A DNA stretch of 64,000 nucleotides, taken from assembly GCA_949358305.1 (NCBI GenBank), contig OX442314.1, positions 1,736,001-1,800,000 on the forward strand, written 5' to 3'. The translations under genes and the position numbers were made by a program. Below, in pieces: positions 1-61,189 of this stretch (position 1 is its first letter; each line of letters begins with the position of its first letter). The stretch is from Strigamia acuminata. Taxonomy: Eukaryota. Below the pieces are notes generated by a model, which saw nothing but the letters and a program-made list of their open reading frames with translations, was not told the origin of the DNA and ran no database searches.

Positions 1-691
1 ACTAAGCGCACCCGGTTTGCATTCCCGTGATGCGCCTCCAGATACGCGAGGATTTCTTCCCGGCTCTTGTTCGGGACGAATCTGCTCACGACCTCAACAT
101 CGTTGATCAAATCGTTGAACTTATCCGGTTGGTATTCTTCCGGGATGTGCAACGGCGCTTGTTCGGGTTGCTTTAACCGTTCGGCGATCAAACGATCGAT
201 GACGATGTTTCTTCTGTTGGGATTCGCACTCAAGGTTTCAACCATCGCGTAAACTTCGTTCCGATCCACCAAGAAATCCGGGTGGAGCACTCGAAGCCTG
301 TTAATGATATTAGTCACTTCCTACACAAATTATATTCATTTTAATTATTTTGATTGATAATTGGGATTAATTTACGACGAAATACTTCTGTGATGTCGAT
401 TTCAGCTTCTGGCGCGGGCGCAACGGCGATCATCCCGGGAATGTACGGAATGTCGTCTTCGTCGTCGTTTTCGTCGTCGTCGTCACTGTCATCGTCGGGA
501 ATGTACGGACGATTAGCAATGGTGTCGTCGTCGTAGTCGTTGTCTTCAACTGCATGCTGTGGCGCGGGCGCAACGGCGATCATGCCGGGCATGTACGGAA
601 AGTCGTGTTCGTCGTCTTCGTCGTCACTGTCATCGTCGTCTTCGCCATCGTCGCTGTTCTGACGGGATTTACAAAATTTAACTTTTTTCAT
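1..691 (-). CDS. RNF216: 5' part of an RNF216-like RBR E3 ligase paralog (exon 1 691-386, exon 2 320-<1; runs off the window)
   Basis: Acidic exon 1 (MKKVKF...PYIPGMIAVAPAP...DITE), GT..AG intron 385-321, in-frame exon 2 EVTNIINRL...NDVEVVSRFVPNKSREEILAYLEAHHGNANRVRL. Homologous to 32673-33110 and to the 5' end of the RBR gene at 58275-54382. Confidence 0.7.
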
Positions 692-3956: not shown

Positions 3957-6900
3957 ATGCGTGTGTTTCACCCATTAGGCCGAATTCAACAACTAAGGAG
4001 GAGAAGACTGCAACACATTGTTGTCACTGTCATAAAAGAAGAATCGGAGATACCACCATTTGCCAAATCTCTGAAAAACATTTCAAAAAAGAAAAAATTT
4101 AATTATTATCTGTTTTTCGCATTACTTATTATCAATTTGGCAGTTTGCATTTACCAAACTGTAGATCGGATATTGTATTACATGGATGAACCGACAACAG
4201 TCAATGCGGATTTCATTGAAACAGTGCATGGCATTTTCCCGTATGTTTACTTTTTCCCATACACAACTCAAGAATTTAATAATTTTGGAGTAAAAGTGAG
4301 TGGCAGAAAACAAGATCTTGAAAGCTGTGATGGTAGGAGTATAGCCGAGAGAAGATATGCCGATACAAATAATTTTAAATACCAGTATAATCTACTTGAT
4401 GTTTTCAAATACATGAGTATACCGAGTTACATAACTGATGCACACTTCAAAATGGTAAAGCTCTATCTATTTCTTGTTCTTAGTTTAATAAATGAGCAAT
4501 CCTATTTCAGGGAAAATTGCGCATTAATCTAACAATTCAAAATTACGATAGTTTTGTACAAGCTACTGCTCAAGTTTCAAGTCGTACGTAAAAAAAAATG
4601 CATTCACGATTTTTATTTCTAAATCCTTTATTGTTGATTAGTATTGCAGCTCCCATATGGATATTCTGATTACAAGATGGTAATCAAACTAAAATTCCCA
4701 GCAAAATGCAAAATGGTTAATGTATGTTTACAATGTTGCCGAAGTTACAAAATTTGTGTAGGGCCATAACTGTTAGACTTGTTCTTAAAATTTTCAGGTA
4801 AAAATAAATCCTTCACCGGTCTACTATTATGCAGCTGGTTTTATTGAAGGAGTGCAATTGTTACTGAATGCAAAAAACATTGCAACCATTCATAGAGATA
4901 GAGAAAATTTGAGAGCAACTAGACATAGTGCTACAACTAATTTGGAAAAAGTAAGATGCATGTGCAAGGAATTTGAAATGCGTCGCAGGATCTTATTTTA
5001 ACTTTTTGGGGTCCCTAACATACGTTTTAAAAAATTAAATCTAAATTTCGTACTTGTAGAGTCACGGATTATTTATTTTAATTTGCTAAAATTATGGGGG
5101 CGTATCCTTTTGACACCTGGCCCAATTCTTCTGTCTTTTCAAATACACGGGCAAACGTTGATGGGTAGTTGCAAAAACGGTACGCCAGCCGCAGTTTCTG
5201 CACCCAAATCAATACTACCACACGTCAAATTAAAGGGATCCTTTTGGACACAGATATAAATACTGTTCCAGATTTTCTTGAAATTAAATATCACACAAAG
5301 GAATTCATTTGAAACTTAACAAATTTACTTTCAGTATCACTTTCTCCGCACGAAGAGAAATCCTTGCGATAACAATTTACATGGCTGTTTGCTCCCTTGT
5401 TTCATGAAGAATGTTACTTGCAGGTAAATTTGTATATGCTTAAACAAGCTAAACATGAAAATATAATTGCAGTCATAAAAATAGTGTTCAAGTTAGCTTT
5501 GAAATGAATGTTTTTGTTTTGACGACCAGAAACAAGTGAAACCTACGATGTTTCAGGGATATTTTGAAAGCTTTATATTGACCATCTGTTCAATCAGTTA
5601 TGGTGTTCACAGTTGTGATACACAACACCACAATGAACAAAAACTTCCCATCTGTTTAACTGTTTTAAGTTTGTTCAACCATTGAGATTCACTATATCAT
5701 ACTAAAGTCATTTGATAACTTTAGTTCCTTTTACATTATGATGCATTAAACATCATAATTGAAAGAAGTAAAACAGTTGACCACACTTTCCAGAATCCAG
5801 AGTTCAATTTTTTTCTCCATGTTGCTTCAGTTATTTAGCCTAACTGTTTTAATTGCTTGCTGTGCATCAGCTACCTATTCATTCTAAAGAAACATGAATA
5901 AAATGTACTGTATCTCAGGTTTCCATTTTACGATGCAAGAAGCCTACCAGAATGCGAGAATAATGAACTAAAGCGTCAACGTGAAAAGTGGATGAAATCA
6001 ATTAAAAATGATAATGAGGATGCAATAGAACTGTGCAAATGTCCTCATTTATGCCATGTGACAGAAGTGAGCACATCCTTCGATACAATACCCTATTCTG
6101 AGAATATCCTCGATGTTTCTCTTCTGAATAAGTTCGTTCGTACATTGCAAGAACAATTTTTTTACGACATAATCTCTCTGCTATGCGACATTGGCGGAAA
6201 CATCGGACTCTACTTCGGAATGTCTTGTTTGACACTCGTCGAAATATTTGTTCACTGCTACAAAATGCCTTCTTTAATGTTCAGAAAAAAAAATAAATCA
6301 AATTCAGAGTTAAAAGGAAAAATTCAAGCAATTCTAGAAATTAATAAGAAAACGCACAAGCGAAGCAAACTGATAAAGATTGTGCTACTATTTCTGATTT
6401 TCACATCGATTTACCAAGTTTATGCTTCAATTGATCATTACTTTGATTATCCAATCATCAAATCAGTTATTCTGGCTAGAGACAAAATCATTCAGTTTCC
6501 ACGAATTGTACATTGCCGAGAATCTGAAGAAATAGTAAAAGTCAAGGAAAATGTAAGTGAACAACTACACTATGATGTTCGCCATTACAAGCTTTATTAC
6601 TTACTCCATTCATCGTCGAAATTCGCAAACAATTCTCTGGAATTATGGAAGGCCTCTTCTAATTTAGAACGCCATTATACCGAACTCCAAGTAAGTAACA
6701 AGATTGATTTTCCTTTAAATGCATTCATTGCTCAATTTCACATTTTTAAACAAATAGCTATTTTTATAGATGTTCCATAAACTTGGTAAATCTTTTGATG
6801 TTGTGCTTTACGGCAATGTGTCAGCTGTGTCAACCGTATTTGGAAACTGCACTGAATTTAAAAAAAGTAAGGTAAATACAAAACAAATTATTGTTTTCTC

Positions 6901-7734
6901 ACTTTTAAATGTTTACAGTTGATCTGCCTTATTCTCCGCACAAGAACCATTTAATTGTAACCTATTCCTTTCGTAACATTTTCAAATGGAATGTGAACCA
7001 ACCAGTGAGATCTTCCGATATTTTTATTTCATTCAGTTGATTATTTGGATTGCATTCATTCTAGAACTTCATTCTACCACAGAACCAATATCTTCACCCG
7101 AAATATATTGTTTACACACCCAGTATGGGTTTTGTTCAAATTTACATTTCTCGTAAAACGGTAATGTTTGTACTAAAAAATTCACTATGGTATTTGCAAG
7201 TTTATCCCTTTTAGCTGGTTCGAATAAACACTCCGAAAAACCCTTGTGCAGCAAATGATCGAGTATCAGAATGTGAAGAAAAATGTTTTGCAGGGAAGCT
7301 ACAGCTACAACCTTTCAAGTGCAAGTGTGTTTTCAATGCATTGGTTTGCATATTAGACAATTTGACTGGTAATCACAGTTTGTTTTACTATTAGATTGCC
7401 ATTTATGGAAACGAGTAAGATACCTTTGTGCATGACCACTGAAACGGCCGAAAAAACTGTTAACATGTATTTGGAGGCTCAATTCACGACAGATCCACGC
7501 AAAGACTGTGACTGTCCAGCTCGCTGTGAACAAACAATATTCCTATCTTCAGTACAACAGGAAATGAATAGGAAGTTCCTCAGCAGAAATACATTCACGA
7601 TTTACAGCAACATTCGAGAAATAATTGCAGAAGAGAAACAACTTTCCATTGTCAAATTGTTTTGTCAAATGGGATCAATCATTGGAATTTTTACCGGTCT
7701 ATCAATATTTGCACTCGTCGAATATTTCATATGA
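3957..7734 (+). CDS. Tandem double-domain DEG/ENaC (pickpocket/ASIC-like) channel, gene A, ~797 aa
   Basis: Exons 3957-4454, 4511-4583, 4642-4721, 4798-4950, 5335-5423, 5919-6690, 6770-6866, 6919-7004, 7065-7160, 7215-7324, 7395-7734; all GT-AG, 2394 nt, no stops. Two TM1 (RILYYMDEP; SIDHYFDYP), two Cys-rich thumbs (CKCPHLC; CDCPARC), two TM2/filters (LLCDIGGNIGLYFGMS; LFCQMGSIIGIFTGLS). Confidence 0.9.
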
Positions 7735-7858
7735 TTGCAAAGCAATGAAATAATTCGTAGAACAAATACTTTTTTTTCACTCTTTCAACTGAATCCTTCA
7801 CCTCATAATGCACAAGTTCTTCTTTTTAATTAATTGAACATAGGAAAATTATGACGTA

Positions 7859-8187
7859 ATGCAGTTTTTGGCCCCACCCACAAAAAGAAACCTACAAATT
7901 ATTAAGAGCACTACCAAACAATATTTGACGACTCAATTCAAGACAGATCCCCAGAAAGACTGCAAATGTGCGGCACGCTGCAAAGAAACAATATTCGTAC
8001 CTCTATTTATTCAACTAAGAAAAGGGACAGGCAATTTGATAACATACGGTATTGACAGCAACATACGAGAAGTAATAGAAGAACAGAAAGTAATTTCATT
8101 AGTCAAATTATTTTGTCAAATCGGATCAATTTTTAGTATTTTGAACCAGTCTCTCAATATTTTCACTCGTTGAATATTTCATTTGAA
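7859..8187 (+). pseudogene. Degenerate tandem duplicate of the last exon of DEG/ENaC gene A
   Basis: TQFKTDPQKDCKCAARCKETIF...SLVKLFCQIGSIF versus AQFTTDPRKDCDCPARCEQTIF...SIVKLFCQMGSII. A 1-nt insertion near 8143 shifts the TM2; the shifted frame reads TSLSIFSLVEYFI*. Confidence 0.8.
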
Positions 8188-10545
8188 TTAAAAGTCAACA
8201 AAACCACTCTTCAACTATTCAATGTATTTCTGTACAAGTAATTCTATTATTTCACTTCTCACAAACATTGTGTTTGTGTCTTGTAAAAGTATAGAATAAA
8301 TATATAAACGTATAGGCCAGCCCCATTTAATGCATGTTACATGTGTAGCTGAGTATCAGTAACAAATAACTTACATAGTCTAAGCACATTTAACACCAGC
8401 TGCATTCGTAATGTAATTTTAAACTTAGTGTTGATTTTAATGTCAAAAACTGAAATGTATTTCATCTCGAATGTACTAAATTATAAAATAAATTCTTGTT
8501 GTTTCATCTTAAGTATTAGTTTGAGGTTACTGAAGCATCTGAAAGACCCAAACTGAGGACATCTCAAGAACAAGAACCCAAACGAGAAATATCTTAATTG
8601 TAAAAATGAAATAAACCATTTTAATATGAAAATAAACTTAATGACAAACAAGACACAAGATGTTAGAAGTCTTATTTTCTTATTTCCAAATTAATAACAA
8701 TTAAGCAACAAAATATTTGTAAGCAATTTCAATATTTCTAGTGTCAGTTTCTTTCAAAATGCAATTTGTATCATTTGTCACCAGTGACCATTAGTTCGTG
8801 AATTAAATTCATCAACACGTTCACCATGCCTGACATGTTTCATTGGCAAAAATTGACCAACATTTTGAGAATTTATACCAAAATTGGTCGTAATTTAAAA
8901 AATTTAACTGAATTTCTAGAAAAATTGGAAAAATAATTACCAAAAATTTCAGATAAGTTCAAGTTCAGGTACTTGAATAGTTTGTGTGTGAACAGCTTAC
9001 AGCGAACATGAGCTTCAACACGTTCCCAATTCCATGAACGAGTTGCAACACTGCTTCTTACACACTAACAAGCAAGTGACCATTCATCACAAACAATGTG
9101 AGTAAATTTGGCAAAACAATGGAATCACCCAAACGCCCACTCTGTTCCCATCGTTCCACAACACAATTTCGCCCACCAGGAATTGTAAAAGTGTAGAAAA
9201 TAAAAAGAAAAAGAAACTTACCGGTACTTACCTCATTAAATTACTGAAATCTGCCAGCCTGCGCATAAACTCCACAACGGTCGATAAGAAGAGGAAGTTT
9301 ATAATGTCATTGTCTCTATCTTGGATCTAGCCACTTTATCACATCACCAGACGATGTGCTCAATAATTCACATAATCAACTAAAAAAAAGAAAAAAACAA
9401 TCAATTAATCAATCAATCAATTAGCAACAAATCACTGACCATCACCAACTATAAAAAGCAAAAAATCCCAACTGAGTCAAATGACGTTTAATTTTGGCTG
9501 ATTGGGTAGGATCGGGCGTTGATTTGAAGAATGTAGCGCACTCTTCAAACTGATGCGATTTGTTTTACGTACAAAACAACTCTCGATAAAACTGTGCTCG
9601 CTAGAACCAGACACCAGATTTCTAGCTAGGCTTTTTGGTTTGTTGTGGCCACTCAGGCTGGGTCGAATGACAGTGGCCGAGCGCGACGAGTGTTGCACGA
9701 ATGTCCGAGTTTACTTCGAGAGCTCTCGAGATCGAAACCCGGGCTACGTCCGTCAATTCTTTGAACAGAAACTTTCGGTAGTCTCTGAAAACAGTGCTTG
9801 ATCCGAATCGCAAGTTGTTGACGAACAGTGCCATCGTTTTTACATTTCTATACCACGTTCGCTTCTCGAGAAACGACGCCATTAAAGGCCAATTCGAGTT
9901 TACGGAAGAGTATCGGCGACATGTCGCACTTTTATTTTAACTTGATAAAATATCTCTGATAATTTTTATCGTTTAATTTGATTCGATTTAATCTTTTTAA
10001 ATAATAAAATATTTAAAAAAAACTATCAAACAGATTTGATTTATCAAACCATATTTTATCAAATATCCTTAATAGGCCTCCGTATATTTCAACGAGGCAT
10101 TCAATGCAAATGATGATGAAATTCGTTACGAGATGTCTCTCCCGCATCGTTTCTTCCCGTTCATTGGTCACTGAAGCGAATCGCTTACCGGTAATAAATA
10201 TGAAAATATGAAAATAAATCATTCATTGCTAGATTTGAAAAATATACTACCAGTTTGTCACGTTTCGCCAACTTATTAAATGGACAAGGGATAGATTACG
10301 AAAATGTCACGTCAGTGGCATGATTTAAAAAAATTCTCAAATTTATTAAAACTTTTTGACAAAAATTGGAGATAAATTTGTACGAGTTGCAAAAATTAAT
10401 TTTTTTTAAACAAATTGGGAAAATTAAATTTCACATCGCTTATTTCGACAAATTCGAGAATTTTTTAAAAAAAAATATGCAATTATTTCCTGTATTGTGA
10501 TTGGACTGCAGCGTTACTACGACTCGCTTCTGTTGCTATGCACTA

Positions 10546-11210: not shown

Positions 11211-11364
11211 TAATGATTTGCAATCGTAGGATGCGTTTTTCCTGTTCAGAGTATTATTAAAGGACTGCCCAATTAACTTACAAGGTTACATATTTCAACT
11301 TAATTAATTGTTATTTTTTAAATTTCAGAATCATTAGCTTATTGTTACTTTACTGAAGTAAAAA

Positions 11365-12081
11365 ATGGAGAGAAAACGCCAGGATTATTGTTGCAATCGG
11401 TGCGACTATTCGTGTTCATACATTTATCTAATGAACCGGCACATGCTTAAACACACTGGTGAAAAGCCTTTCAAATGTCAAATGTGTTCACTTTCATTTC
11501 GACTTAAAGCAAAGATGACTGTCCACATGCGAATTCACACCGGAGAAAAACCATTCAAGTGCCATTTGTGTGATTATTGTTCGAGTTATAGTGAACATTT
11601 AAAAAGACATCTATTAACCCATTCAGGAGAAAAGCCATTCAAGTGCCATTTGTGTGATTATTCCAGTGTTCAAAGTGGGAATTTAAAAAGTCATCTATTA
11701 ACCCATTCAGGAGAAAAACCATTCAAGTGCCATTTGTGTGATTATTCTTGCAATCGAAATGGAGATTTAAAAACACATCAATTAACCCACACAGGAGAAA
11801 AACCATTTAAGTGCCATTTGTGTACTTATAGTTGCAATCGAAATGGAGATTTAAAAAGACATCTATTAACCCATTCAGGAGAAAAAGCATTCAAGTGCTA
11901 TTTTTGTGATTATTCTTGCAATCGAAATGGAGATTTAAAAAGACATCTATTAACCCACACTGGAGAAAAACCATTCAAGTGTCATTTGTGTACTTATTGT
12001 TGCAATCGAAATGGAGATTTAAAGAGACATCTATTAACGCATTCAGGAGAAAACCCATTCAAGTGCCATTTATTTGTGTGA
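11365..12081 (+). CDS. Tandem C2H2 zinc-finger protein (8 complete fingers, 9th frameshifted)
   Basis: Repeated CxxC-x12-HxxxH with TGEKPF linkers. A 4-nt insertion near 12070 breaks finger 9, which continues CDYSCNHSGSLKSHQL in another frame to a stop at ~12154. Splice acceptor at 11328. Confidence 0.9.
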   Translation: MERKRQDYCCNRCDYSCSYIYLMNRHMLKHTGEKPFKCQMCSLSFRLKAKMTVHMRIHTGEKPFKCHLCDYCSSYSEHLKRHLLTHSGEKPFKCHLCDYSSVQSGNLKSHLLTHSGEKPFKCHLCDYSCNRNGDLKTHQLTHTGEKPFKCHLCTYSCNRNGDLKRHLLTHSGEKAFKCYFCDYSCNRNGDLKRHLLTHTGEKPFKCHLCTYCCNRNGDLKRHLLTHSGENPFKCHLFV

Positions 12082-27886: not shown

Positions 27887-30800
27887 TGTGAAAATCGGAT
27901 GATTTTACGCGTGAATTATTATTCGAGTTTCATTTGTATTGTTGAATTTATATTGTTATTTTGTATTTCCATTTTTTATTTAAGATTTTGATATTTGAAT
28001 TTGTGATTTTGCCAATTTGTTATAATATGTCTTTTATTCTCATTTGTATGTTTTGACCTGTTCATTTTATTGGAATCCTAAATTGTTAATCCTTTTTAAT
28101 CCGTTTGCATTCCTCCACCTGAACACGTCATTCCCTTACCTTGCGGACGCTTGTGATTGGTTCTCCGAACTCGGGATTTGCATTTCCTTTTCCCTTTATG
28201 AATAGAATAAAATCAGTGTACTTTTGCTTTGTAAAACGTGTGGTTGTGCTTCTTTACTGCTCCGACGCCATTTTGAAACTTCAATTTAAACATCATTTGT
28301 AGCCAAGGACTTTGGAAATTGTGTGGTAAATTTGTAGGAACATTTATTTCTCTTCAAGTTTAACATTGGTGCCGAAACCCGGGAGCATTTTAAATTCCGA
28401 TTCTGGATCTAGCGAAAAGCGACCAAGAGATCGACGACACCGTACAAGCACTCGACGCACTGGAAGACCGTTTGGCCGCATCAAGAGCTGATTTAGGCAG
28501 GTACATTCAACTAAATTACACCCCTAATCTACCCCAGAACATACGACCGAACGCGGACGCGCAACCGGCGGACATCGACGCACTAGCGGCGGCCATTACC
28601 GCAGCAGTGACGGCGGCAACACCACGCGCAACACCGACGAACGGTCAAACGTTCATCAAACGTAAGCCACTCGAAATGCCGAAGTTTGACGGACGTAAAC
28701 CGGAGGAATGGGGAGGTTTTTGGAAGACATTTTCCATTCAAGTTGGCGACGACGAACAACTGGATGGAACCAACAAATTGCTATATTTGAGAAACTATTT
28801 GGTCGGCGACGCGTTAGACGATATCAAGGCACTGGAAATCACCACAGGAAACTACGAGATTGCAATTACGCGCCTGCAAAAGAAATATGGCGATAAAATC
28901 GTTCTCGAAAATAAGTATCTGTCGAATTTGTTAAACTTGCCCTCTGTCAACAGCGATCGAGACCGGATGGGTTTACAAAAACTCCACAGACACGTGGAAG
29001 TTAACATAGAAAATTTAGCCAACATTGACGTACCTTTGGCAGAAATACAGCGGACCATTTTCCCCGTGCTGTCGTCGGCTGTTCCGCGCAGTATAATCAT
29101 GGAATATGACAAAGACTGCGACGGGGAGAGGTCAATAACAAAGTTGATGGAATGGTTGAGCGACTACCTCGCCAAACACGCCAAGTATGACATGCTGAAA
29201 ACCCAATCGAAGCCAGATGCGTCTCACAACAAAACGTCGGACAACAATCCCCCCAACAAAGGACGATTTGGCCGACAAGAAAAGGAACCTCGATCGGGAT
29301 CGGCGTCGCAACTGTCAGTATTAATAATGAAATGTCAATTTTGCGATTCCACAGAACACAATCGGAAAAGATGCCCGCTCACGATGGAGGAGAGACGTAA
29401 AGGACTGCAGAAAAAAGGGATTTGCATGAGATGCTTGGGGAAAGTGCCCCACAAGACGGAAGAATGCAGAACTCGCATGAAATGCTACAACTGCGAGGGA
29501 ACACATCACACCCACGTGTGCGACACACCAAAGACTACGGAAGCCAGCGAGGGAATCACCCACACCAACGCAGTCGTCACCGCCTGTCCACCCAAGTCCG
29601 AATTTTTGATGGTGCAGATGGTGAAGATGGCTGGACCAACGCACTCAACTTTGGGAGTGTGCTATATCGATGGGGAAGCCCAACGCACATTCATACGGTC
29701 TGAATTGGTTAAAAAACTGAATTTACGAATTTTAGGAACTGAGACAATCAATTTGGCCGTGTTTGGACAAGAGCCCCGATCAGAAGTACGCAACAGAGTT
29801 GAACTAATACTCAGCCCCGCCAATTCGAAGTCGCCAGCCGTCACGATTGAAGCCATTGAAGCTGCCCACGTCACGTCCACCCCCGGAGAACAGCCGAATA
29901 AGCAACTAAAAGCAGAATTACAACGAAGAAAAATCGAAGTGGCCTGCAAGCAAGTCGCGTTACATTCGAAAGAGGTGGACTTACTAATTGGAGTGGACCA
30001 TTATTGGCGAGTGATGGCGGGACAGACCGAATTTTTGGAAGAAAACTTGATTGCCGTAAAGACGAAATTTGGTTGGACGTTACACGGACAGACCACAAAC
30101 GGAACGAGAGTCATTGCTGCACCGGTGAGAATTAATCAAATTACGCTTACTCCATCGACAGATGATCCTTTGCGCCGGATGTGGGAGCTGGAACCGATCG
30201 GAGTCCGCCACGAGTCAGTCGAAACCAACGACGACGTTGAGACGTTGAAAAAATTCGAAAAGACCATCAAGTGGACGGGATCAAATTACTACATGCCACA
30301 CAGCCCAGTAATCAAGGAGTTGGTGACTCCAGAAATAAGGGAAAAATCGAAAACTGAAGATTGGAGACACGTAGCGGGAATAGAAAATCCTGCTGACCGC
30401 CTGACGAAAGGAATGGACGCAGAAGTGATGATAACCGACTTACTTTGGTGGCAAAGACCGAATTGGCTACGCGGAAGTCGACAAGATTGGCCAAATTTGC
30501 CCACAGATCCGGTCGAAGAACATGACGACGAAATTGCGGAAATCCACGTCGAGGCGGTGCAGACAACGACAATTAATATTTTTCCGTTTGACAGGTTTGG
30601 ATTGCTGTCAAAGGCAATCCGAACGCTGGCATGGGTTTTTAGATTTGCTGACGATGCTGGAAAACAACAAACAGATGCCAGCCGACGCGATCGAGGTCCA
30701 TTGAAGGCAATCGAGCTGAAACATGCAAAGTTCAGTTTGATCAGAATTGCGCTAGCAGAAGTTTATGGCCGAGAGATCGAAAGAATGAAGGATGACAAAT

Positions 30801-32079
30801 CGGTTCATGGAGAGTCAAAATTGCGAGATCTGAATCCACAGCTAAACGAAATTGGACTGATTAAGCTACGAAATAGACTACATGAGTCGCGAGATTTGCC
30901 CACTGCTACTCAACCTTTAATTTTGCCTCCTAAACACAAACTTACAGAACTAATTTTGCAATTCTCACATTTACAGGTCCTCCATTGCGGACTGACATCC
31001 ACGCTATTCAAGTTTCGAGAAAATTACCGGACACCATCCGCAAGGAGGACCTTGAAGACGATGTGGGATCGATGCGTTGTTTGCAAGAAAATCAACGGAC
31101 AACTGATGCGGGAAGTGCCAAGTGCCCTCCCAGCCGACAGAACGTCAAAAGATCAACTGTTCGCGGTCACCGGAGTCGATTTCGCGGGACCAATAATAGC
31201 AGTTCACTTGGAATTGGTGCCCTCACTAGCAACGACAGACTTTTTGGGAACAACAGACAATCTCGAACCAACTCAGAAGCAGTTTATTCGACAATGGCGC
31301 TACCAACAACGCGTATTACTCTCATTCTGGAATCGTTGGTCTCGGGAGTATCTGACAGATTTAAAATTTCAAACGGGCAAATCAAGCGTGCGAGAACTTC
31401 AGTCGAACGACGTCGTTATAATTGAAGAGCCATTTAAACCACGTCTAAAATGGAAAATGGGTAGAGTGGTCGAAGTTAAGCGAAGTCGAGACAACAAGAT
31501 CAGATCGTGCGAACTGACACTCGCCAATGGAGAACATTTGCGTCGACCAATACAACGTCTTGTGCGTTGGAAGTGGAGTCAAACAATCCCCGCCCGGCAG
31601 TGTGAAAATCGGATGATTTTACGCGTGAATTATTATTCGAGTTTCATTTGTATTGTTGAATTTATATTGTTATTTTGTATTTCCATTTTTTATTTAAGAT
31701 TTTGATATTTGAATTTGTGATTTTGCCAATTTGTTATAATATGTCTTTTATTCTCATTTGTATGTTTTGACCTGTTCATTTTATTGGAATCCTAAATTGT
31801 TAATCCTTTTTAATCCGTTTGCATTCCTCCACCTGAACACGTCATTCCCCTACCTTGCGGACGCTTGTGATTGGTTCCCCGAACTCGGGATTTGCATTTC
31901 CTTTTCCCTTTATGAATAGAATAAAATCAGTGTACTTTTGCTTTGTAAAACGTGTGGTTGTGCTTCTTTACTGCTCCGACGCCATTTTGAAACTTCAATT
32001 TAAACATCATTTGTAGCCAAGGACTTTGGAAATTGTGTGGTAAATTTGTAGGAACATTTATTTCTCTTCAAGTTTAACA
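27887..32079 (+). mobile_element. BEL/Pao LTR retrotransposon, internally deleted (RT/RNase H and integrase core missing)
   Basis: 479-bp LTRs 27887-28365 and 31601-32079 (TG..CA, 2 mismatches seen), TSD ATTGT, PBS TGGTGCCGAAACCCGGGA (tRNA-Phe). Confidence 0.95.
28472..31705 (+). CDS. BEL/Pao polyprotein remnant: DUF1759 Gag, Zn knuckles, protease, partial RH/IN
   Basis: MPKFDG..W..FW..F, CQFC/CMRC/CYNC knuckles, YIDGEAQRTFI, WRHVAGIENPAD, GVDFAGP, FWNRWSREYL, RRPIQRL. No YxDD motif. First ATG at 28676. Confidence 0.9.
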   Translation: MAASRADLGRYIQLNYTPNLPQNIRPNADAQPADIDALAAAITAAVTAATPRATPTNGQTFIKRKPLEMPKFDGRKPEEWGGFWKTFSIQVGDDEQLDGTNKLLYLRNYLVGDALDDIKALEITTGNYEIAITRLQKKYGDKIVLENKYLSNLLNLPSVNSDRDRMGLQKLHRHVEVNIENLANIDVPLAEIQRTIFPVLSSAVPRSIIMEYDKDCDGERSITKLMEWLSDYLAKHAKYDMLKTQSKPDASHNKTSDNNPPNKGRFGRQEKEPRSGSASQLSVLIMKCQFCDSTEHNRKRCPLTMEERRKGLQKKGICMRCLGKVPHKTEECRTRMKCYNCEGTHHTHVCDTPKTTEASEGITHTNAVVTACPPKSEFLMVQMVKMAGPTHSTLGVCYIDGEAQRTFIRSELVKKLNLRILGTETINLAVFGQEPRSEVRNRVELILSPANSKSPAVTIEAIEAAHVTSTPGEQPNKQLKAELQRRKIEVACKQVALHSKEVDLLIGVDHYWRVMAGQTEFLEENLIAVKTKFGWTLHGQTTNGTRVIAAPVRINQITLTPSTDDPLRRMWELEPIGVRHESVETNDDVETLKKFEKTIKWTGSNYYMPHSPVIKELVTPEIREKSKTEDWRHVAGIENPADRLTKGMDAEVMITDLLWWQRPNWLRGSRQDWPNLPTDPVEEHDDEIAEIHVEAVQTTTINIFPFDRFGLLSKAIRTLAWVFRFADDAGKQQTDASRRDRGPLKAIELKHAKFSLIRIALAEVYGREIERMKDDKSVHGESKLRDLNPQLNEIGLIKLRNRLHESRDLPTATQPLILPPKHKLTELILQFSHLQVLHCGLTSTLFKFRENYRTPSARRTLKTMWDRCVVCKKINGQLMREVPSALPADRTSKDQLFAVTGVDFAGPIIAVHLELVPSLATTDFLGTTDNLEPTQKQFIRQWRYQQRVLLSFWNRWSREYLTDLKFQTGKSSVRELQSNDVVIIEEPFKPRLKWKMGRVVEVKRSRDNKIRSCELTLANGEHLRRPIQRLVRWKWSQTIPARQCENRMILRVNYYSSFICIVEFILLFCISIFYLRF

Positions 32080-32326: not shown

Positions 32327-32617
32327 AGCCAAGAGAGACGAAGAAAGTTCGAGCGCCGTTCGAATGTGAGCGGAAAATTCGGGTGAAATTAGGAAAGAAA
32401 AAAGCGCGGGAGATACGATTGGAGAAATTTGTGGAAATCTTGCGAGGCCGAGTGAATGTTGGTCGGTCGCAGTTGTTGTTGGCTGAAAAAGACGACAAAA
32501 GTGTCGGTTTGAATGGATGCTCAAAGTGAAGGAGCGACATCTGCCGATTGAGAGCCGGGAAGTGGAGAGATGGCGGCGAAACACAAAAGTCAGAGCAAAA
32601 TCGTGACGAAACTCAGC
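32327..32617 (+). pseudogene. RNF8-like exon-4 fragment
   Basis: MLKVKERHL...KHKSQSKIVTKLS matches 18095-18197; frameshifted. Confidence 0.75.
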
Positions 32618-34023
32618 CAAATGGCTAAAGGAACCCGAGGAAACGCCGTTCAACATCCCGGAGGAACAGAACGTGGACAAATACGACGAACTACTCAATG
32701 ACGTGGAGGTGGTTAGCAAAGTCGTTCGGAACAAGAGCCGGGAGGAGATCCTCGCGTATTTGGAAGCGTTCCACGCGAATCCGGACCGAGTACGCATCGT
32801 GATCGGCGAGTTGCTCGGAATGAACGGGCCGGCGCCGTTTCCTGCATCGAATGACGTTCGGAGCTCCGGAAATGATGGGGCGTCGCCTTCGGCCGAATCG
32901 ATGACGATGGAGAAAGTCAGATCGATTTTCGAGCTTTTCCCGGACGCGGATCCCGAATATCTGCGGAAATTCGTCGAGAAATGGGCAGACAATGTGAATC
33001 ACATCAACGCGACGGTCTACGGGTGGATGGACAATCGGTCTCGTCCGAAGTTGGCCGAAGCTCGAAGAGCGGCGACTAAACGGAAAATTGTGGAAAGGTT
33101 TTCTTGTAGTTTTGTGTATTTTTATAATAATACAAGAAAAGGTTTTTATTAATGTTTTTCGTTTTGCAGCGATTTCAGCGTGGAGGAGTTCTTGGAGATG
33201 TTTCCAGTCGCGGAGAACTTTTTCAACAATGATGACAAGAGTCACGACTGTTTCGTACAGTGGAACGCGTATCAAAACTGGTTCTGGCAGAACCAGTTTC
33301 GATACGCATTCCACGCCGATTAGTTGAAAGTGATGCATAAACACCATTTCTACCTCACGCCGGTCATGAAGGAGCCGTTTCCCACATTTCATTTCAAAAC
33401 ACATTCAACCCAGACATTCTCCTCTACTTTCTTCGTCTTCTTTACTCAACGTAACCCCAGAAATCATGGCAACAAGTGCAACGACCAAAAGTATGCCGAC
33501 AATACCTGCAGTAGCAACGATAAACTTCTTACTGAAACGTTTCCCAACAGACGGTGAACTAATCAATTAATCAATTAATCAATTAATAAATAATAAACCT
33601 AATCGATTTATTCGATTAATGCAGAACCGCGAGCAAAGAAGACGAAAAAGACCGTGAGGACAAAGAAGTTTCCGACTCAACGCGTGCCCATGCCGAAACA
33701 AATCGACGCCGAAAATCGGTGCCCTAACATTCAACTTGCCTTGGCCCTTCAATTTTTGGCGACCTGCACCAAGGCCCCGGCCGATAGTGCCTGCTCCAGC
33801 CCCAGGGCCGTTTCGACCTATGAGGCGAAGAGGCGGCCGCCAGGTGGCCATGCCGTGGTACGTCACTTTACCAAGGCATGGCCACCTGGCGGCCGCCTCT
33901 TCGCCTCATAGGTCGAAACGGCCCTGTCTAGCCCCCTTTCTTTTTGAACCACCTGCGTCTGACCACGATCTTTTTGGGCAACCTGCGCCGAGGCCACGTT
34001 GTCGTCGTGATCGTCGTTATTAA
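32618..34023 (+). pseudogene. RNF216-like N-terminal and C-terminal fragments lacking the RBR core
   Basis: DKYDELLNDVEVVS...ELFPDADPEYL (CUE-like); DFSVEEFLEMFP exon with frameshift and stop; MPKQID exon; Pro/Arg-rich tail. Confidence 0.8.
33803..33926. mobile_element. 124-bp palindromic hAT-type MITE
   Basis: 58-bp arms (1 mismatch), 8-nt loop, CAGGGCCG termini, 8-bp TSD TCCAGCCC/TCTAGCCC. Confidence 0.9.
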
Positions 34024-34835: not shown

Positions 34836-37800
34836 CTACCAATCCATATCTTGATTCCGATACCAATTATAAGTTTTTAAAATCAAATTGTACAATGACA
34901 GTAGTGACATTCCCAAACCTAGTCCTACAATGCTACCGAAATCGCTTAAGAACTGAGATATTGGATATGCTTGTTTCTCTTCTACAATCTCTACAGAGCT
35001 ATCAGCAAATTGCAACAATAGAATTGTAATCTTATCTTCTTGATAATTACTTTCCCGAAAAGTACTTTTGTAAAAAATATGTTTGCAAGGTTGTTTACAT
35101 TTGCATTGTTTTTGATTCGAGTCAAGATTGCTTAAATACGTGAAATGAGCGGCAGTTACGGCACTTGTAGTGTTACATACTGGCGAATTAGGTTTTCCCA
35201 TGTACGGTAATCTGAAATCAAGAGGAGATTTCTCAAAGATGCAAATGGTTGCAGTTTATCTGCTGAAAAGGGTTAGGTGTTTTTCGAACAGATTCAATCT
35301 GGTGATGCAGCAAATGAATCTTTAATCGCTATCATGTCAAAACAAGCTTGCAAGTTTGTGTGTGGTTAATGCTAGTGTAATGACCCATTGCCAACTGATA
35401 ATTGACCGTGGAGTGGCTGATCAGTCAATGTTTAGAACAGCGAAAATGAAAATAGATGTGATAAAATTGGAGCTGATGTATGAAAAGAAATGTTAACTAC
35501 TTGTATACCTGCATTTAACACCTCGAAATACATTGTTATGCCAGCAAGCACTTTTACACTTGAGATAAGCACTTTTGGCCTCTTCACATGGATTGCGCTT
35601 TCTATTTCTTCTTAGGATCTATTTCGTAAAAGGAATCTTAATATAAGCATTGATATAATTTATTTCATTTTCTACCTGAACGTCTCGAAGTACTACTTCA
35701 ATGACAGACGTGTTGTTTACATTGTTTACGGTAAATGGTGTCAAAATGTTAACTCCCTCTTCCCGATTATTTATGAATAGCTGCGTGTTATTATAATCCA
35801 AAATATTTATATTAATAATTAATACTGTTTGTGCACAAAAAATATTTTTTCTCTTCAATTAGGAATAATTGTGTACCCGATCAAAACACAAACAATATTT
35901 ATAACTTTTTTCAGCTTTGGAGTAACCTAAAAACTTTATTTGCTTCTTTGTGCTTGAATAAATACTAAATAGACATTCTCGTTATCTTACTGTATTTAAG
36001 AATGCTGCTTAAAAAGGCACAGAGACTGACAATTTAACACAGGGGTCAGCAAGTAAATTTAAGTAGGGTCCGGATACTATTGAAAATTTTTATTGAGGTC
36101 CAGAATAAAAAAACTCATAATACTTATTAGTTTTAAATTTCTTACTAAAAACCTAAGAAAACGGTGAAAAAAACAATTAAAAACCGTACTAAAACCTAAG
36201 AAAACGGAAAAACACATAAAAACCAAATAAACACACACAACCCAAAAAATACCAATAAAACCTAAAAAACACGGAAAAAAAAAACAGGAAAAACAAGAAA
36301 AAACACAGAAAAACCAAAGAAACCGAGGGGAAAACGTCGCTAAAATGTCACCTCTAATTCCGAAAACAATATGTCGCTAAAACGGACGTCGCTACACTGA
36401 ACCTTTCCGTATTTGGCGGTCCAAGTTTCGACCTACCGCCGTCCGCCTGTTGCAGACCGCTGATTTAACACATTCCATTTTGTTTGAAAAATTTCGGTTG
36501 ATGTCGAGTGAAAATGTTTTTTTACACACCTTTAGCTGCAGATCACAAGCTTCTGAAGGAGTTCGATGTTTACTACACTCAATGTAAAGTTTGGTGGTAT
36601 TTGTGCTTGTTTTATCTGTAAGTCAGCGAAAAGGTCAGAATTAATTTTCAAATTCGTCTGCAGAAAAGCAGTTTTTACAGTTAAATAATTCCAAAAAAAA
36701 AGAAACATTAAAAAATCTCTGAATTCAAAAGTAGACTTTGAATACAACCATTAATTAACTAAAATCAGAAAATAATTTTGTAAATTACCATTCCTTATTT
36801 GTGAACAATTACCAAATGGAAGTGAAATAAAATTAGTTGATGGTACCTGTAAACATAAAACTTGTATTGTTTGGTTTTTGTTTGAGGAATATCACTTATT
36901 ATATTACATCATTCTTATTACGGGTATCAATAAACGTTAGGTCAATACTAAGTGATTCCCAGATGTTTTGCAATGACAATTTGCTGTTAAACAATTGCCA
37001 GGGTGATATGTTGCCACAAGTGTTTTTGGGTTGTTTAAGTAAGTGTAATCGAGCTTTGTGCATTTTTTCGTCCCATTTTTCACCACAAACTGTGACAGAA
37101 GGAAATTCGGTGTAACGTCGTTGACTTATTCGAATGACTGTTGTACTTGGTTCATCAAGGTAGTAATTGATACGACTGTGCAGACAATACAAAGTAAATC
37201 CTGCAACAACTAATACGAAAATTAACTTCAGCTTTTCTAAGACTGTATATATTTTGGTTTGCTCTTCAGTCTCATGAACTTTTTTTTTGCACATTTCATA
37301 CAGACGCCTAATCTTATTGATGGATCTTTTTCGGTGAATGTTTGATGCAACATAATATAAATACCAAATAATGTCAGGTAATGAGATTACGGATAGTCCA
37401 ATAAACAAGCCCAGATTGCCTCCTAAATCTGATAGTAAGGCAATAACGTCATATGAGTACCGTTCTTCATACACAGTGACCTTCTCATCAGTTAATGCTA
37501 ATGTTAAACTCATCGTTTTATTATTTTTAGCTATGCCTAAATCAGTATACGGTGTAAAAGTTAAATGTTGACAAGGACGTTGACATCCGCAATGAGCAAT
37601 TGGTTCATGAACTGTAACCAAGGACAGAACATCAGAATACGTGTATTGTGCATCATTTGCTAATTTGCAAAGTGGCAAATCTAACTTCATGGATGGAAAT
37701 CTTGTATACAAGAAATTTAATCAGCTGTTTAATTGTGATACCAAACAAGAAGCCTTTTCACTACATGTTCTTACCTGCATTTTAGCTTTTTAAATTCGTT

Positions 37801-38894
37801 ATGTAAGCAATTCCGATAGCATTCTCTGTATTCATCTTCGTTAGAGCATGAACTGATCGGTGAATTTTGCAATATGAACTACAATTGAATAAATTAAAAG
37901 GTGTTGCCCAGGAATTTCAAGTCCTTAGATAAAACTTTACTTTGTTACAACTAAAATTTATTGTAGATGTTGAACCAGGATTCATCTCTGATACAGGAAA
38001 GTAATTTCCAACGTTTTTGAATGCCAGCAAAACCTAAGGGCAAAGAGGAAAAAATTAATGTAGCAATTGCTATTGTAATTTATAATCAAGTTACCCCATA
38101 ATAAGGCTTATTGCATATCAAGTCGTAATTTTTTTTTAAATTCACTGTCAGTAACTTTCTGACAAATGATTTGCTAGAAGCTTCAGCTATGTCAATGAAT
38201 AATATTAGTGTAACAATGTAGGTATTGATAAATGCTTGTTTGTAGTTACCAAATCGAAATGTTGAACATATTCCGAATGTACTGTCAGTTTCCGTCTGAA
38301 CAATAGAAGTATTTGAATATCCCTATGCAAATATATTTTAAATTGTGATTTTTAACTGAATTTCTCTACTGTTTTTTTTTTAATTTTAATTTTTACTTTC
38401 ATTTTTACACTGTCGATGTCATCAGTATTGTTAGTTGCTTTCCAAAGTGTATCCATATCGTAAGTTGGGTTTTTAATACTCATTAGTGCATAAAGCATGG
38501 ATTGGCATGTAATGGATACTGATGTTTTTTTATTTGCTATACGAGTTTCTTCCCAAAGCCTATTCATTTTCTTTGTATCTGAACTACAAACCATTAAGTC
38601 TGGTAAAGTAACATTTTCTGATCTACTGGTTACGTCGACAGCTGTAGGATAACTGAAGTAATGCATTATTCTTTCGTATGTCTGATATGTGAGCATGCAC
38701 ATGCAAAATGTGAATAAAAGCAGCCAAAGGATGTGATGTTTGCTCCTCCAACGTTTCCTACTGTTTATGAAATCTTCCAATCCGATTACATCGCAGTTGG
38801 GTTTGTTGGCATAATCCTTCATTAATTGGTGAATTGTCAGACGGAGTTGTCTTTTCCCTCTTCTGTATCTCCACATCAAACTATTATTCTGCAT
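34836..38894 (-). CDS. Tandem double-domain DEG/ENaC channel, gene B, ~795 aa
   Basis: Exons 38894-38397, 38322-38250, 38186-38095, 38033-37941, 37878-37775, 37700-36908, 36846-36789, 36615-36530, 35780-35676, 35618-35509, 35211-34836; 2388 nt, no stops. TM1 RIMHYFSYP / RINYYLDEP; LPDLMVC / FPSVTVC; FGIC / FGNC; TM2 LLSDLGGNLGLFIGLS / FLSDFGSIVGLGLGMS. Confidence 0.9.
36040..36462. mobile_element. hAT-type MITE in intron 8 of gene B
   Basis: TIR CAGGGGTCAGCAA / TTGCAGACCGCTG; perfect 8-bp TSD ATTTAACA. Confidence 0.85.
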
Positions 38895-39065
38895 TATTTT
38901 GGTACTTTCCAAGCTTCTAGAGTGACTGAATGAGTTTGATCTAACTGTTTGTTTGCTTGAGCAAACATGCAGAGGGATGGCGAAACTGAAAAACGAAACA
39001 TCATTATTTTTTTAACATTGATTGTTATGCATGTCTTCGGAAAGAATATGGATTAATTCACTACC

Positions 39066-39665
39066 AAATTTTGTCAAATTTTTCAAAAATTTGACAAAAT
39101 TTTTCAAAAATTTGACAAAATTTTTCAAAAATTTGACAAAATTTTTCAAAAATTTGACAAAATTTTTCAAAAATTTGACAAAATTTTTCAAAAATTTGAC
39201 AAAATTTTTCAAAAATTTGACAAAATTTTTCAAAAATTTGACAAAATTTTTCAAAAATTTGACAAAATTTTTCAAAAATTTGACAAAATTTTTCAAAAAT
39301 TTGACAAAATTTTTCAAAAATTTGACAAAATTTTTCAAAAATTTGACAAAATTTTTCAAAAATTTGACAAAATTTTTCAAAAATTTGACAAAATTTTTCA
39401 AAAATTTGACAAAATTTTTCAAAAATTTGACAAAATTTTTCAAAAATTTGACAAAATTTTTCAAAAATTTGACAAAATTTTTCAAAAATTTGACAAAATT
39501 TTTCAAAAATTTGACAAAATTTTTCAAAAATTTGACAAAATTTTTCAAAAATTTGACAAAATTTTTCAAAAATTTGACAAAATTTTTCAAAAATTTGACA
39601 AAATTTTTCAAAAATTTGACAAAATTTTTCAAAAATTTGACAAAATTTTTCAAAAATTTTTGTCA
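39066..39665. repeat. 21-bp tandem satellite (GACAAAATTTTTCAAAAATTT), ~28 copies
   Basis: Essentially perfect array, ~170 bp upstream of the gene B ATG. Confidence 0.97.
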
Positions 39666-40616
39666 TAAATTATCAGAAATAACCCTTTGTTCCTTTGATT
39701 TTGTATTTGGAGACGTCAAAAGAAACAATACTGTACAATTGTTCTCGGCCCAAACAGACATGGTTTATTTTTGCGAGACCAGAAAATTGATCAATCAGTA
39801 AATACAACTACTGTCGTTTTTCAACACAAATACGATAAAAACGACTTAAGAAAATTCAAACTAAGCACTGTTGCAGTTTAGTGAAAAGCTAAACATGTAG
39901 TACAGTACAAATTATTCCTCAAGAAGATTGGCAAATTATAAAAGGTACTCACACTTTAGTGCCTGTTCATTTGCAAGGACTGCATATTTCATACCAACAC
40001 ATTTCTGGTTTCTTTCTTCTGTGAATTTTACCTGCACGACCCTGGCACTACGGCATCCTGTAGAAATTGCGTGGGGTTGCTTTACGGCTAGCTTCTCTGC
40101 TTAGACCCCATTCGATCTGATTGCGATATTGGCGAAAAGATCTCGGATTTTGGGCTGATGACTTGAGCTGCAGTCTATCAAATTCTAAACTTGTTTGCTC
40201 CTAACACGGTAGAGTTTTGTATGCTACTATAGCTTGGTGAATTTTATGATGTTTTTTATTTGCCCTTAAAAAGGACATTAATCATTCATGAATTATATTT
40301 CCGGTGTTTTAATAATCAATACTTTCGAGTTTTGCAAAAGAAATATTAATAATATTTTGCAAAGAAATAAAGATTACATCTTCCATGCAATTGACGCAAA
40401 TGCCAGGGGCGAGTGAGCAATATTTGTTTTATTTCGACAGTGTGTGCACTGTCGAAATTCAAGCAGTTGCGCAGGTTGTACTTTGACATGCGCCACGACT
40501 CGGACGGGGAAATGGCGGAGGAAAATGACTCGTTCGATCGATTGTCTGAAATTAAACAGTTTTGATGCAGAATTCAATTTTTATCATTTAGTATTTTCAA
40601 CAATAGAAGTATATAA

Positions 40617-51200: not shown

Positions 51201-51476
51201 AGCGGCGAAAATCTCATCAAAACTTGACAAGAAAACACAAAAGTTCATAACAGTTGATGGATTCAATTTGTACTCATCTCTCGTCGCCAATTAATGTGTT
51301 CTCTGCAGTTGATGTCTCGATAAAGTTGGAAATTAGTGCTTGTTAGTTAAGAAGCAGCCATGTTTGATGGTGGAATTAACATAAGTGTTTTATTACGTGA
51401 ATTAATACAGGGGGCGCTCGTGTTAGCGGGCGCGTCACAAAATAACGATAAAATAAAATGGAGTCGGAACACTCCA
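48299..51476 (-). mobile_element. Ty3/Gypsy LTR element 2, Gag-protease only, chimeric 3' LTR
   Basis: LTRs 48299-48482 and 51295-51476; PBS TGGCGACGAG; PPT AATTAAGGGGA. ORF 51139-49274 with Gag, CHGCGIEGHIKPIC, MEIDTGAG; no RT/IN core; no TSD. Confidence 0.9.
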
Positions 51477-51810
51477 AGATGTCTTCTTAAAACCCCACTT
51501 TGAATGCACGAATAATCACACAAATGGCACTTGAATGGTTTTTCTCCTAAATGGGTTAATCGATGACTCTTTAAATTTCCATTTTGATTGCAAGAATAAT
51601 CACATAAATGGCACTTGAATGGTTTTTCTCCAGTGTGAATTCGCATGTGGACAGTCAAGTAAGTTTTAAGTCGAAATGAAAGTGAACACATTTGACATTT
51701 GAACGGCTTTTCACCAGTGTGTTTAAGCATGTGCTGTTGCAATCGGCAAATGTATGCACAGGAATAATCACACAGATTGCAATTGTAATCCTCACGTGTT
51801 CTCTTGATTT
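51477..51810 (-). pseudogene. Third zinc-finger copy, truncated by Gypsy element 2
   Basis: Four fingers homologous to 11365 onward; ATG replaced by ATC; cut at RRH|LTR. Confidence 0.85.
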
Positions 51811-61150: not shown

Positions 61151-61189
61151 ATAAAATAAACAAAACAAACCAAATAACTAAGCTATAAA

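What the first reader, a model, noticed from the sequence alone, without database searches (positions are those of the whole stretch)
3957..7734. Natural two-subunit concatemer of a DEG/ENaC channel (gene A)
Seen: one 772-nt exon (5919-6690) runs without stop or intron from the thumb and TM2 of subunit 1 (LLCDIGGNIGLYFGMS), through a ~40-aa basic linker, into TM1 and the ectodomain of subunit 2. All 11 exons splice in frame, and intron phases 0,1,0,0,2 occur twice. So this is not a gene-finder merge of neighbours. Known: DEG/ENaC/ASIC subunits have two TMs and assemble as trimers. Inference: a 4-TM double subunit cannot close a trimer alone, so it may hard-wire a 2+1 heterotrimer with a free partner, link trimers into arrays, or be cleaved in the linker. 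I do not know of a characterised natural example.
Basis: partly seen in the sequence, partly recalled or inferred. Interest (0 to 1): 0.92.

Follow-up and report, generated by a model that had tools for sequence, protein, structure and literature searches.

The report
Natural two-subunit DEG/ENaC channel chains
This gene, likely from a centipede, encodes two different DEG/ENaC ion-channel subunits joined in one predicted protein chain, a design shared by a whole gene family; because such channels are known as trimers, the double chain likely needs a third subunit from another chain.

Summary
Observation confirmed. Gene A (3957-7734, +) splices as 11 GT-AG exons into 797 codons with no internal stop. 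It holds two complete DEG/ENaC repeats, joined inside one 772-nt exon by a basic 35-residue linker. A second gene in the window (B, 34836-38894, minus strand) has the same build and intron phases, although its repeats are only 19-22% identical to A's. Among 150 database hits, 33 span the same TM2-linker-TM1 junction; 16 are named Strigamia maritima. Trees put first repeats in one clade and second repeats in another, so one old fusion was followed by family expansion. The closest solved channels are the single-subunit centipede channels BRTNaC1 and PDPNaC1. Repeat 1 keeps the canonical pore motif; repeat 2 is altered. Most likely mechanism (inferred): a fixed 2+1 heterotrimer completed by a free subunit; self-assembly into linked trimers is the main rival. 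Unexpectedly, decapod crustaceans hold three-repeat chains of apparently separate origin. Ten paper searches found no natural DEG/ENaC concatemer, and the scan's notes held nothing alike. Transcript, protein and assembly remain untested.

The parts
3957..4454 (+). Gene A exon 1: N-terminus, TM1 of repeat 1 (about 4107-4163), start of ectodomain 1
4511..4583 (+). Gene A exon 2 (ends phase 1)
   Evidence: predicted from splice signals and phase only
4642..4721 (+). Gene A exon 3 (phase 0)
   Evidence: predicted
4798..4950 (+). Gene A exon 4 (phase 0)
   Evidence: similar stretch seen in P0007 and P0022
5335..5423 (+). Gene A exon 5: first thumb cysteines of repeat 1 (phase 2)
   Evidence: profile iE 6.4e-4
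5919..6690 (+). Gene A exon 6, the fusion exon: thumb and TM2 of repeat 1, linker, TM1 and ectodomain start of repeat 2
   Evidence: two profile hits, iE 9e-29 and 9e-19
6268..6372 (+). Predicted cytosolic linker, aa 415-449, 35 aa, net charge +9
   Evidence: topology inferred
6770..6866 (+). Gene A exon 7 (phase 1)
6919..7004 (+). Gene A exon 8 (phase 0)
   Evidence: similar stretch in P0006
7065..7160 (+). Gene A exon 9 (phase 0)
   Evidence: similar stretch in P0006 and P0011
7215..7324 (+). Gene A exon 10: first thumb cysteines of repeat 2 (phase 2, weak donor)
7395..7734 (+). Gene A exon 11: thumb and TM2 of repeat 2 (about 7675-7731), stop
   Evidence: P0011 ends at the same aligned place
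7844..8190 (+). 5'-truncated, frameshifted copy of the last exon (49% identical), likely a relic
34836..38894 (-). Gene B: 11 exons (38894-38397, 38322-38250, 38186-38095, 38033-37941, 37878-37775, 37700-36908, 36846-36789, 36615-36530, 35780-35676, 35618-35509, 35211-34836), 795 aa, same two-repeat build and phases
36908..37700 (-). Gene B fusion exon, 793 nt; linker about 37229-37348 (40 aa, net +6)

Best explanation
Gene A is one reading frame holding two different DEG/ENaC repeats joined by a short basic linker, one member of an old two-repeat family likely of centipedes, and its predicted four-helix chain likely fills two adjacent positions of a trimeric cation channel whose third position is likely taken by a free single-repeat subunit. 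Shown: the ORF, the two repeats, the paralogue and relatives, the repeat-specific clades and the pore-motif asymmetry. Inferred: the fusion arose when the last exon of one tandem gene joined the first exon of the next. The linker stays cytosolic and fixes order and stoichiometry (repeat 1, repeat 2, partner). Repeat 1 supplies a canonical pore helix and repeat 2 a modified one. The role is likely sensory (pH, heat or chemical), by descent from the BRTNaC1/PDPNaC1 lineage. My odds: about 0.9 that the two-repeat chain is real and made, and about 0.55 for 2+1 with a free subunit given that.
For: (1) Gene A and gene B have the same 11-exon plan and phases, at 19-22% identity between their repeats. 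(2) S. maritima T1JEH2 matches B's fusion exon at 51% identity over 95% of its length. In a profile search, 33 of the 150 listed hits have a best stretch running from TM2 through TM1; 16 of the 33 are named S. maritima. (3) First repeats form one clade and second repeats another: 8 of 8 and 10 of 10 rows at 97/95 and 100/98, 96 and 97 under a mixture model, and 15 of 15 and 17 of 17 labelled rows in the wider tree. A1+A2 as one clade is rejected, p-AU 1.7e-5. (4) The linker is kept at 35-62 aa with net charge +3 to +13 in 26 of 27 aligned rows, and 6 of those 26 have no Met for an internal start. It is 38-52% identical to close relatives, about as conserved as the ectodomains. (5) All four window repeats keep 8 thumb cysteines and a GxS motif. 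(6) AlphaFold2 of the relative P0015 gives four membrane helices, pLDDT 73 and pTM 0.70 for the whole chain; the best fold match is BRTNaC1, E 7.6e-19. (7) Asymmetry: the second Gly of DxGG is present in 28 of 28 first repeats and 1 of 11 second repeats. At the PDPNaC1 Ser376 proton-block position, first repeats have Asn in 24 of 28 and second repeats Ile/Val in 8 of 11. (8) Single-repeat relatives sit in the same larger clade. PDPNaC1 is a homotrimer (PMC12714832, abstract) and BRTNaC1 entries hold three chains each. (9) Decapod three-repeat chains show that fixed single-chain trimers are at least encoded elsewhere.
Against: Nothing beyond DNA and prediction was tested, and no partner was identified. 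The nearby single-repeat proteins are unnamed records, so their species and co-expression are unknown. S. maritima entries are automatic gene models, mostly fragments. Three of them omit the linker (P0011) or TM2 of repeat 1 with the linker (P0022, P0067). One contig of run X1 carries a 7-nt deletion at 3988 that would shift exon 1 (allele or paralogue). Gene A has an AATAAA at 6292 inside the linker and Met codons at aa 414 and 418. A's repeat 1 lacks the cysteine after TM1 that the other three repeats keep, and neither first repeat has an intact His-Gly motif, although PDPNaC1 lacks it too. pTM 0.70 is for a relative and only suggests neighbour-like packing; coordinates were not seen. Engineered two-subunit ASIC1a chains gave currents without any added partner (PMC4529235, passages), which favours the self-assembly rival. 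Trees have long branches.
Confidence: 0.5

Rival explanations
1. The double chains assemble among themselves. One chain gives two repeats and a second chain gives one, and the spare repeat dangles or seeds another trimer, so three chains can build two tethered pores or an open array. Different paralogues could mix.
For: Engineered ASIC1a dimers were functional in oocytes without added monomer (PMC4529235, passages). Repeat 1 keeps the canonical pore motif of the homotrimeric relatives. The family is large, so doubles may outnumber singles.
Against: That paper also saw monomer-sized by-products, which could explain the currents. A 35-residue linker would force two trimers very close together (inference). 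A dangling repeat would risk ER retention (general knowledge).
Confidence: 0.27
2. The gene yields separate subunits, by cytosolic cleavage of the linker, by early polyadenylation, or by an internal start. The fusion would mainly co-regulate two ordinary subunits.
For: AATAAA at 6292 in A's linker and Met codons just after TM2. Some S. maritima models omit the linker. Engineered concatemers break down.
Against: A transcript ending there would lack a stop codon. Met is absent from 6 of 26 linkers, and linker length and charge are conserved. Luminal furin cannot reach a cytosolic linker (established topology).
Confidence: 0.08
3. Two double chains form a four-repeat (pseudo-tetrameric) pore, a new stoichiometry for this fold, much as K2P channels pair two-repeat chains.
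For: The arithmetic fits with no partner. The second-repeat pore helix is bulkier. PMC4529235 argued for ASIC1a tetramers (abstract and passages).
Against: The reviewed DEG/ENaC structures are trimers (PMC10148893, passages), and PDPNaC1 is a homotrimer. Decapod chains stop at three repeats.
Confidence: 0.06
4. Artefact or dead gene: a mis-assembly, a chance read-through between tandem genes, or a decaying pseudogene in a fast birth-and-death family.
For: The region is rich in paralogues and no listed contig spans the linker. There is a relic exon at 7844-8190 and one frameshifting variant at 3988.
Against: The same junction occurs in gene B and in another species, with position-specific clades. 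None of the 11 listed coding variants makes a new stop (40 of 431 variant rows were shown).
Confidence: 0.05

Closest known systems
BRTNaC1 (centipede heat/proton channel; PDB 8YMR and related; PMC9974506)
   Same: Best sequence match of the family profile (E 5e-46) and best fold match; compact ectodomain, similar thumb cysteines and DxGG pore helix.
   Different: 431 aa with two TM segments and seven exons; one subunit per chain. Gating of A and B is unknown.
PDPNaC1 (centipede proton-dissociation channel; PDB 9JF7; PMC12714832)
   Same: Second-best match (E 6e-34); no canonical His-Gly motif; Gly at the 378-equivalent position in all four window repeats.
   Different: Homotrimer of 421-aa chains. 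The Ser376-equivalent residue is Asn in repeat 1 and Ile in repeat 2 of both window genes.
Engineered ASIC/ENaC concatemers (e.g. PMC4529235)
   Same: Head-to-tail TM2-to-TM1 cytosolic tether; two-subunit constructs conduct.
   Different: Laboratory constructs that keep the full termini. Here the fusion is natural, old, between two diverged subunits, and trimmed to about 40 aa.
Obligate heterotrimers: ENaC alpha/beta/gamma, PPK1/PPK26 (recalled; PDB 6WTH and 9PZN appear)
   Same: Unlike subunits share one pore, some with altered pore helices.
   Different: Separate genes and chains; no covalent order.
Repeat-fused channels of other folds: K2P and TPC (two repeats), Nav/Cav (four repeats) (recalled)
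   Same: Gene fusion hard-wires pore asymmetry.
   Different: Their repeat number divides the four-fold pore. Two does not divide three, so an odd slot remains.
Decapod three-repeat ASC proteins (Halocaridina KAK7028032.1 and KAK7013173.1; unnamed Logan records P0060, P0072; Penaeus and Petrolisthes proteins of about 1000 aa)
   Same: TM2-to-TM1 fusions with short linkers and repeat-specific clades.
   Different: Three repeats, so potentially a complete channel. A shared clade with the centipede repeats is rejected, p-AU 0.016. Uncharacterised.

Membership tests
DEG/ENaC/ASIC (Pfam PF00858) | ASC domain homology | tested here: met
   Pfam hits on the first, central and last exons of A and B; exon 1 of A is below the cut-off
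DEG/ENaC/ASIC (Pfam PF00858) | Two TM helices around one large ectodomain, per repeat | tested here: met
   TM1-TM2-TM1-TM2 order in A and B; hydropathy 4 of 4 in A and 3 of 4 in B; AF2 of relative P0015
DEG/ENaC/ASIC (Pfam PF00858) | One subunit (two TM helices) per polypeptide | tested here: not met
   Two repeats per predicted chain; filed as a tandem fusion of two subunits, not as an ordinary subunit
DEG/ENaC/ASIC (Pfam PF00858) | Cysteine-rich thumb | tested here: met
   8 aligned thumb cysteines in all four repeats
DEG/ENaC/ASIC (Pfam PF00858) | TM2 with DxGG...GxS pore motif | tested here: met
   GxS in all four window repeats and in 27 of 28 first repeats and 8 of 11 second repeats of the family; second Gly replaced in 10 of 11 second repeats
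DEG/ENaC/ASIC (Pfam PF00858) | Pre-TM1 His-Gly motif | tested here: not met
   Absent in A, Ile-Gly in B repeat 1, absent before repeat 2; not universal, as PDPNaC1 lacks it
DEG/ENaC/ASIC (Pfam PF00858) | Trimeric assembly | not tested
   No complex prediction was obtained; needs experiment
DEG/ENaC/ASIC (Pfam PF00858) | Voltage-independent cation conduction, amiloride sensitivity | not testable with these tools
   Needs electrophysiology
BRTNaC1/PDPNaC1-like centipede channels | Closest solved relatives by sequence and fold | tested here: met
   single-repeat neighbours P0034 and P0044 in the tree also match them best
BRTNaC1/PDPNaC1-like centipede channels | Heat or proton gating in antennal neurons | not testable with these tools
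   No expression or functional data
Decapod three-repeat ASC chains | Common origin of the repeats | tested here: not met
   Separate clades; AU p 0.016

The most novel reading that the evidence does not exclude
Arthropods fused DEG/ENaC subunits into single chains at least twice. Decapods reached a complete three-repeat, one-chain channel, the trimeric counterpart of Nav/Cav. Centipedes kept a two-repeat chain that cannot close a pore alone and either tethers neighbouring trimers into coupled pairs or arrays, or works as a large variable receptor family plugging into a shared single co-subunit.
Probability: 0.3. Interest if true: 0.92.

Novelty: new variant of a known kind. Interest (0 to 1): 0.82.

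Why it matters
DEG/ENaC channels are described as trimers of two-helix subunits, and subunit order has so far been fixed with engineered concatemers, which can break down. A natural, old, expanded family of two-subunit chains gives evolved linkers and fixed asymmetric pores. It poses a sharp, testable question: what fills the third slot? With the decapod three-repeat chains, it suggests a route from homotrimer to single-chain channel that parallels Kv to TPC to Nav/Cav (recalled). It also points to an overlooked candidate sensory receptor family in blind soil centipedes. In annotation, such multi-ASC gene models should not be split by default.

Tried and rejected
No whole genome was held, so no genome-wide count of doubles and singles and no partner search was possible. 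Run search: no RNA holder listed. Run X6 laid only one 35-nt piece on a repeat. DNA-run support for gene B was not obtained. A first model with an extra exon at 5060-5179 gave stops and was dropped. Word-index protein searches were weak: none for A's exon, 2 hits for B's, and only the query itself for the family profile. The Atlas gave only generic ASC clusters. A third repeat for A or B was sought in all six frames of the window and not found; the 7844-8190 piece is a truncated last-exon copy. A hidden intron in A's linker: none of 3 GT-AG pairs keeps frame; in B, 1 of 10 does, and it would leave the fusion intact. Independent duplication within gene A was rejected. Summed depth up to about 35-fold at TM2 of repeat 1 hints at tens of paralogues, but the tool warns it is no copy number. 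The three-repeat Penaeus-type chain folded with six long helices but low confidence (pLDDT 64, pTM 0.51), which is inconclusive for assembly. No complex prediction and no VIA alignment were obtained. Literature: ten searches (listings only) and term look-ups in PMC5203786, PMC8438182, PMC7067487, PMC7510291, PMC10148893, PMC4244043, PMC9822975, PMC6938034 and 10.1101/2022.06.28.497943 (passages only) showed no natural concatemer. Subscription papers (including the BRTNaC1 structure paper) and all supplements were not seen, and gene lists there could mention such models. The scan's notes held only separate-gene Naegleria pairs.

Full report
Observation. Building the gene from the window gives 11 exons between 3957 and 7734 with 10 GT..AG introns of 52-495 nt, phases 0,1,0,0,2,0,1,0,0,2, and 797 codons without an internal stop. 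Exon 6 (5919-6690, 772 nt) carries the end of one ASC domain and the start of a second: Pfam PF00858 hits it in two stretches, and a profile built without window rows hits it at positions 263-386 and again at 17-144. Hydropathy gives four segments. The linker (aa 415-449) stays open in 3.4% of 20,000 shuffles, so one gene alone is only moderate evidence. Three DNA runs from two studies cover every bin of the region. None of the 11 listed coding variants makes a new stop, but only 40 of 431 variant rows were shown, no listed contig spans the linker, and one contig has a 7-nt deletion at 3988.

A second gene. Gene B (38894-34836, minus strand) has 11 exons, 795 codons, the same phase series and a 793-nt fusion exon. 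The four repeats are only 17-24% identical to one another, and the last two introns of each repeat align exactly in all four. The fusion exon looks like the last exon of a five-intron gene joined to the first exon of the next (inference). No third repeat exists in the window. The piece at 7844-8190 is a truncated copy of A's last exon.

Relatives. B's fusion exon matches S. maritima T1JEH2 at 51% identity over 95% of its length, so the window is likely from a centipede; the species was not determined. A profile of the two fusion exons against 1.84 billion representatives gave 150 listed hits, and 33 have a best stretch from TM2 through TM1. By alignment and tree, 24 of the 33 belong with A and B; 13 of these are named S. 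maritima, one is an unnamed ENA record, and 10 were not looked up; five of the 24 were placed by alignment only. Four form a young S. maritima multi-repeat group that may be merged gene models. Five are other multi-repeat proteins. Linkers are 35-62 aa with net charge +3 to +13 in 26 of 27 aligned rows; 6 of the 26 lack Met. Three models omit the linker or TM2 of repeat 1.

History. In a 113-row FastTree, labelled first repeats (15 of 15) and second repeats (17 of 17, plus two unlabelled fragments) each form one group. A 43-row IQ-TREE, limited to the more complete repeats and a subset of singles, gives 97/95 and 100/98, and 96 and 97 with a mixture model. A1+A2 as one clade is rejected (p-AU 1.7e-5), as is one clade for centipede and decapod repeats (p-AU 0.016). 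Long branches are many and the root is not inferred. Whether the two repeats are each other's sisters is unresolved. The reading is one old fusion followed by expansion.

Nearest characterised channels. The family profile matches BRTNaC1 (E 5e-46) and PDPNaC1 (6e-34) far ahead of ASICs (5e-20). BRTNaC1 is a 431-aa, two-TM, heat- and proton-dependent antennal channel (PMC9974506, part 2 of 5 read). PDPNaC1 is a homotrimer lacking the His-Gly motif, with Gly378 setting selectivity and Ser376 mediating proton block (PMC12714832, passages and section 10). AlphaFold2 of the S. maritima double P0015 gives four membrane helices, a partly helical linker, pLDDT 73 and pTM 0.70; its best fold match is BRTNaC1. 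The spliced window proteins themselves were not folded.

Asymmetry. First repeats keep Asp (28 of 28), the second Gly (28 of 28), Asn (24 of 28) and GxS (27 of 28). Among 11 second repeats, the second Gly is kept once, the Ser376-equivalent is Ile or Val in 8, and GxS holds in 8. Both repeats keep eight thumb cysteines and are about equally conserved against close relatives (39-55% in the ectodomains). Both therefore look maintained, with different roles (inference).

Mechanism. By established topology the linker is cytosolic and tethers TM2 of repeat 1 to TM1 of repeat 2, as in engineered concatemers. A trimeric pore then has one slot left. I favour a free single-repeat partner (0.5). The reasons are that singles of the same larger clade exist, the second repeat looks like an auxiliary subunit, and the short linker suits neighbours within one pore. 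Self-assembly into tethered trimers is the main rival (0.27): engineered ASIC1a dimers conducted alone, though with breakdown products (PMC4529235, passages). Processing into separate subunits (0.08), a four-repeat pore (0.06) and artefact (0.05) follow. None of these was tested.

A wider pattern. The same search returned three-repeat chains: two Halocaridina models, and unnamed Logan records of 1268 and 1272 aa on contigs of 4.4-4.7 kb, the first seen full-length three times. It also returned a class of about 1000 aa with a shrunken middle repeat, in Penaeus, Petrolisthes and unnamed records. Their repeats group by position (10 of 10 each, support 96, 95 and 82). One folded with six long helices at low confidence. 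Helobdella and Polypedilum multi-repeat models group within the protein and may be merges.

Novelty. Ten searches of the held library and term look-ups in nine further papers showed no description of natural DEG/ENaC concatemers (see Tried and rejected); subscription papers and supplements were not seen. The architecture already lies unremarked in UniProt gene models. Verdict: real, conserved, a new variant of a known kind, with the assembly question open and directly testable.

Noticed in passing
window 34836-38894 (-): Second two-repeat DEG/ENaC gene (gene B) with an identical exon plan; close S. maritima relatives.
   Followed up: yes
proteins P0046, P0087, P0060, P0072: Three full ASC repeats in one chain (1244-1289 aa) in Halocaridina rubra and unnamed Logan records: candidate single-chain trimeric channels.
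   Followed up: partly
proteins P0069, P0122, P0147, P0150, P0115, P0080, P0058: Chains of about 1000 aa, most with three TM2 motifs and a strongly shrunken middle ectodomain (Penaeus, Petrolisthes, unnamed); P0115 was called on a 69-kb contig, so it may be intronless.
   Followed up: partly
proteins P0009, P0010, P0013, P0026: S. maritima-type models with two or more similar repeats of a different, young lineage: a second fusion or merged tandem genes.
   Followed up: partly
proteins P0062, P0037, P0078: Multi-repeat ASC models in Polypedilum, Helobdella and Notodromas; possibly gene-model merges.
   Followed up: partly
window 7844-8190 (+): Truncated, frameshifted copy of gene A's last exon, 110 nt after the stop.
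   Followed up: partly
window 6076-6236 and other exons of gene A: Very high summed contig depth, hinting at tens of close paralogues of gene A in this genome.
   Followed up: no
window 4240-4260 and exon 2 (+): Repeat 1 of gene A lacks the conserved cysteine after TM1 and apparently its partner; its tree sister P0021 lacks them too.
   Followed up: no
window 39060-39670: Tandem array of a 21-bp unit (about 29 copies) just upstream of gene B, open in several frames.
   Followed up: no
window 28394-31705 (+): 1103-codon ORF with DUF1759, integrase zinc-binding and DUF5641 domains; Bel/Pao retrotransposon-like (label recalled).
   Followed up: no
window 17558-18613 (+): FHA plus RING gene, RNF8/CHFR-like (label recalled).
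   Followed up: no
window 11362-12081 (+) and 51347-51814 (-): Two similar C2H2 zinc-finger ORFs.
   Followed up: no
window 1-250, 32600-33150, 55258-55806, 57382-58123, 61182-61611: Several dispersed paralogous pieces of a gene that looks like an RBR ubiquitin ligase (RNF216-like; label recalled, and Pfam gave no hit for the one piece tested).
   Followed up: no
window 42101-43114 (-) and 49274-51166 (-): Two related gag/protease-like retroelement ORFs (label recalled; no Pfam hit for the one tested).
   Followed up: no
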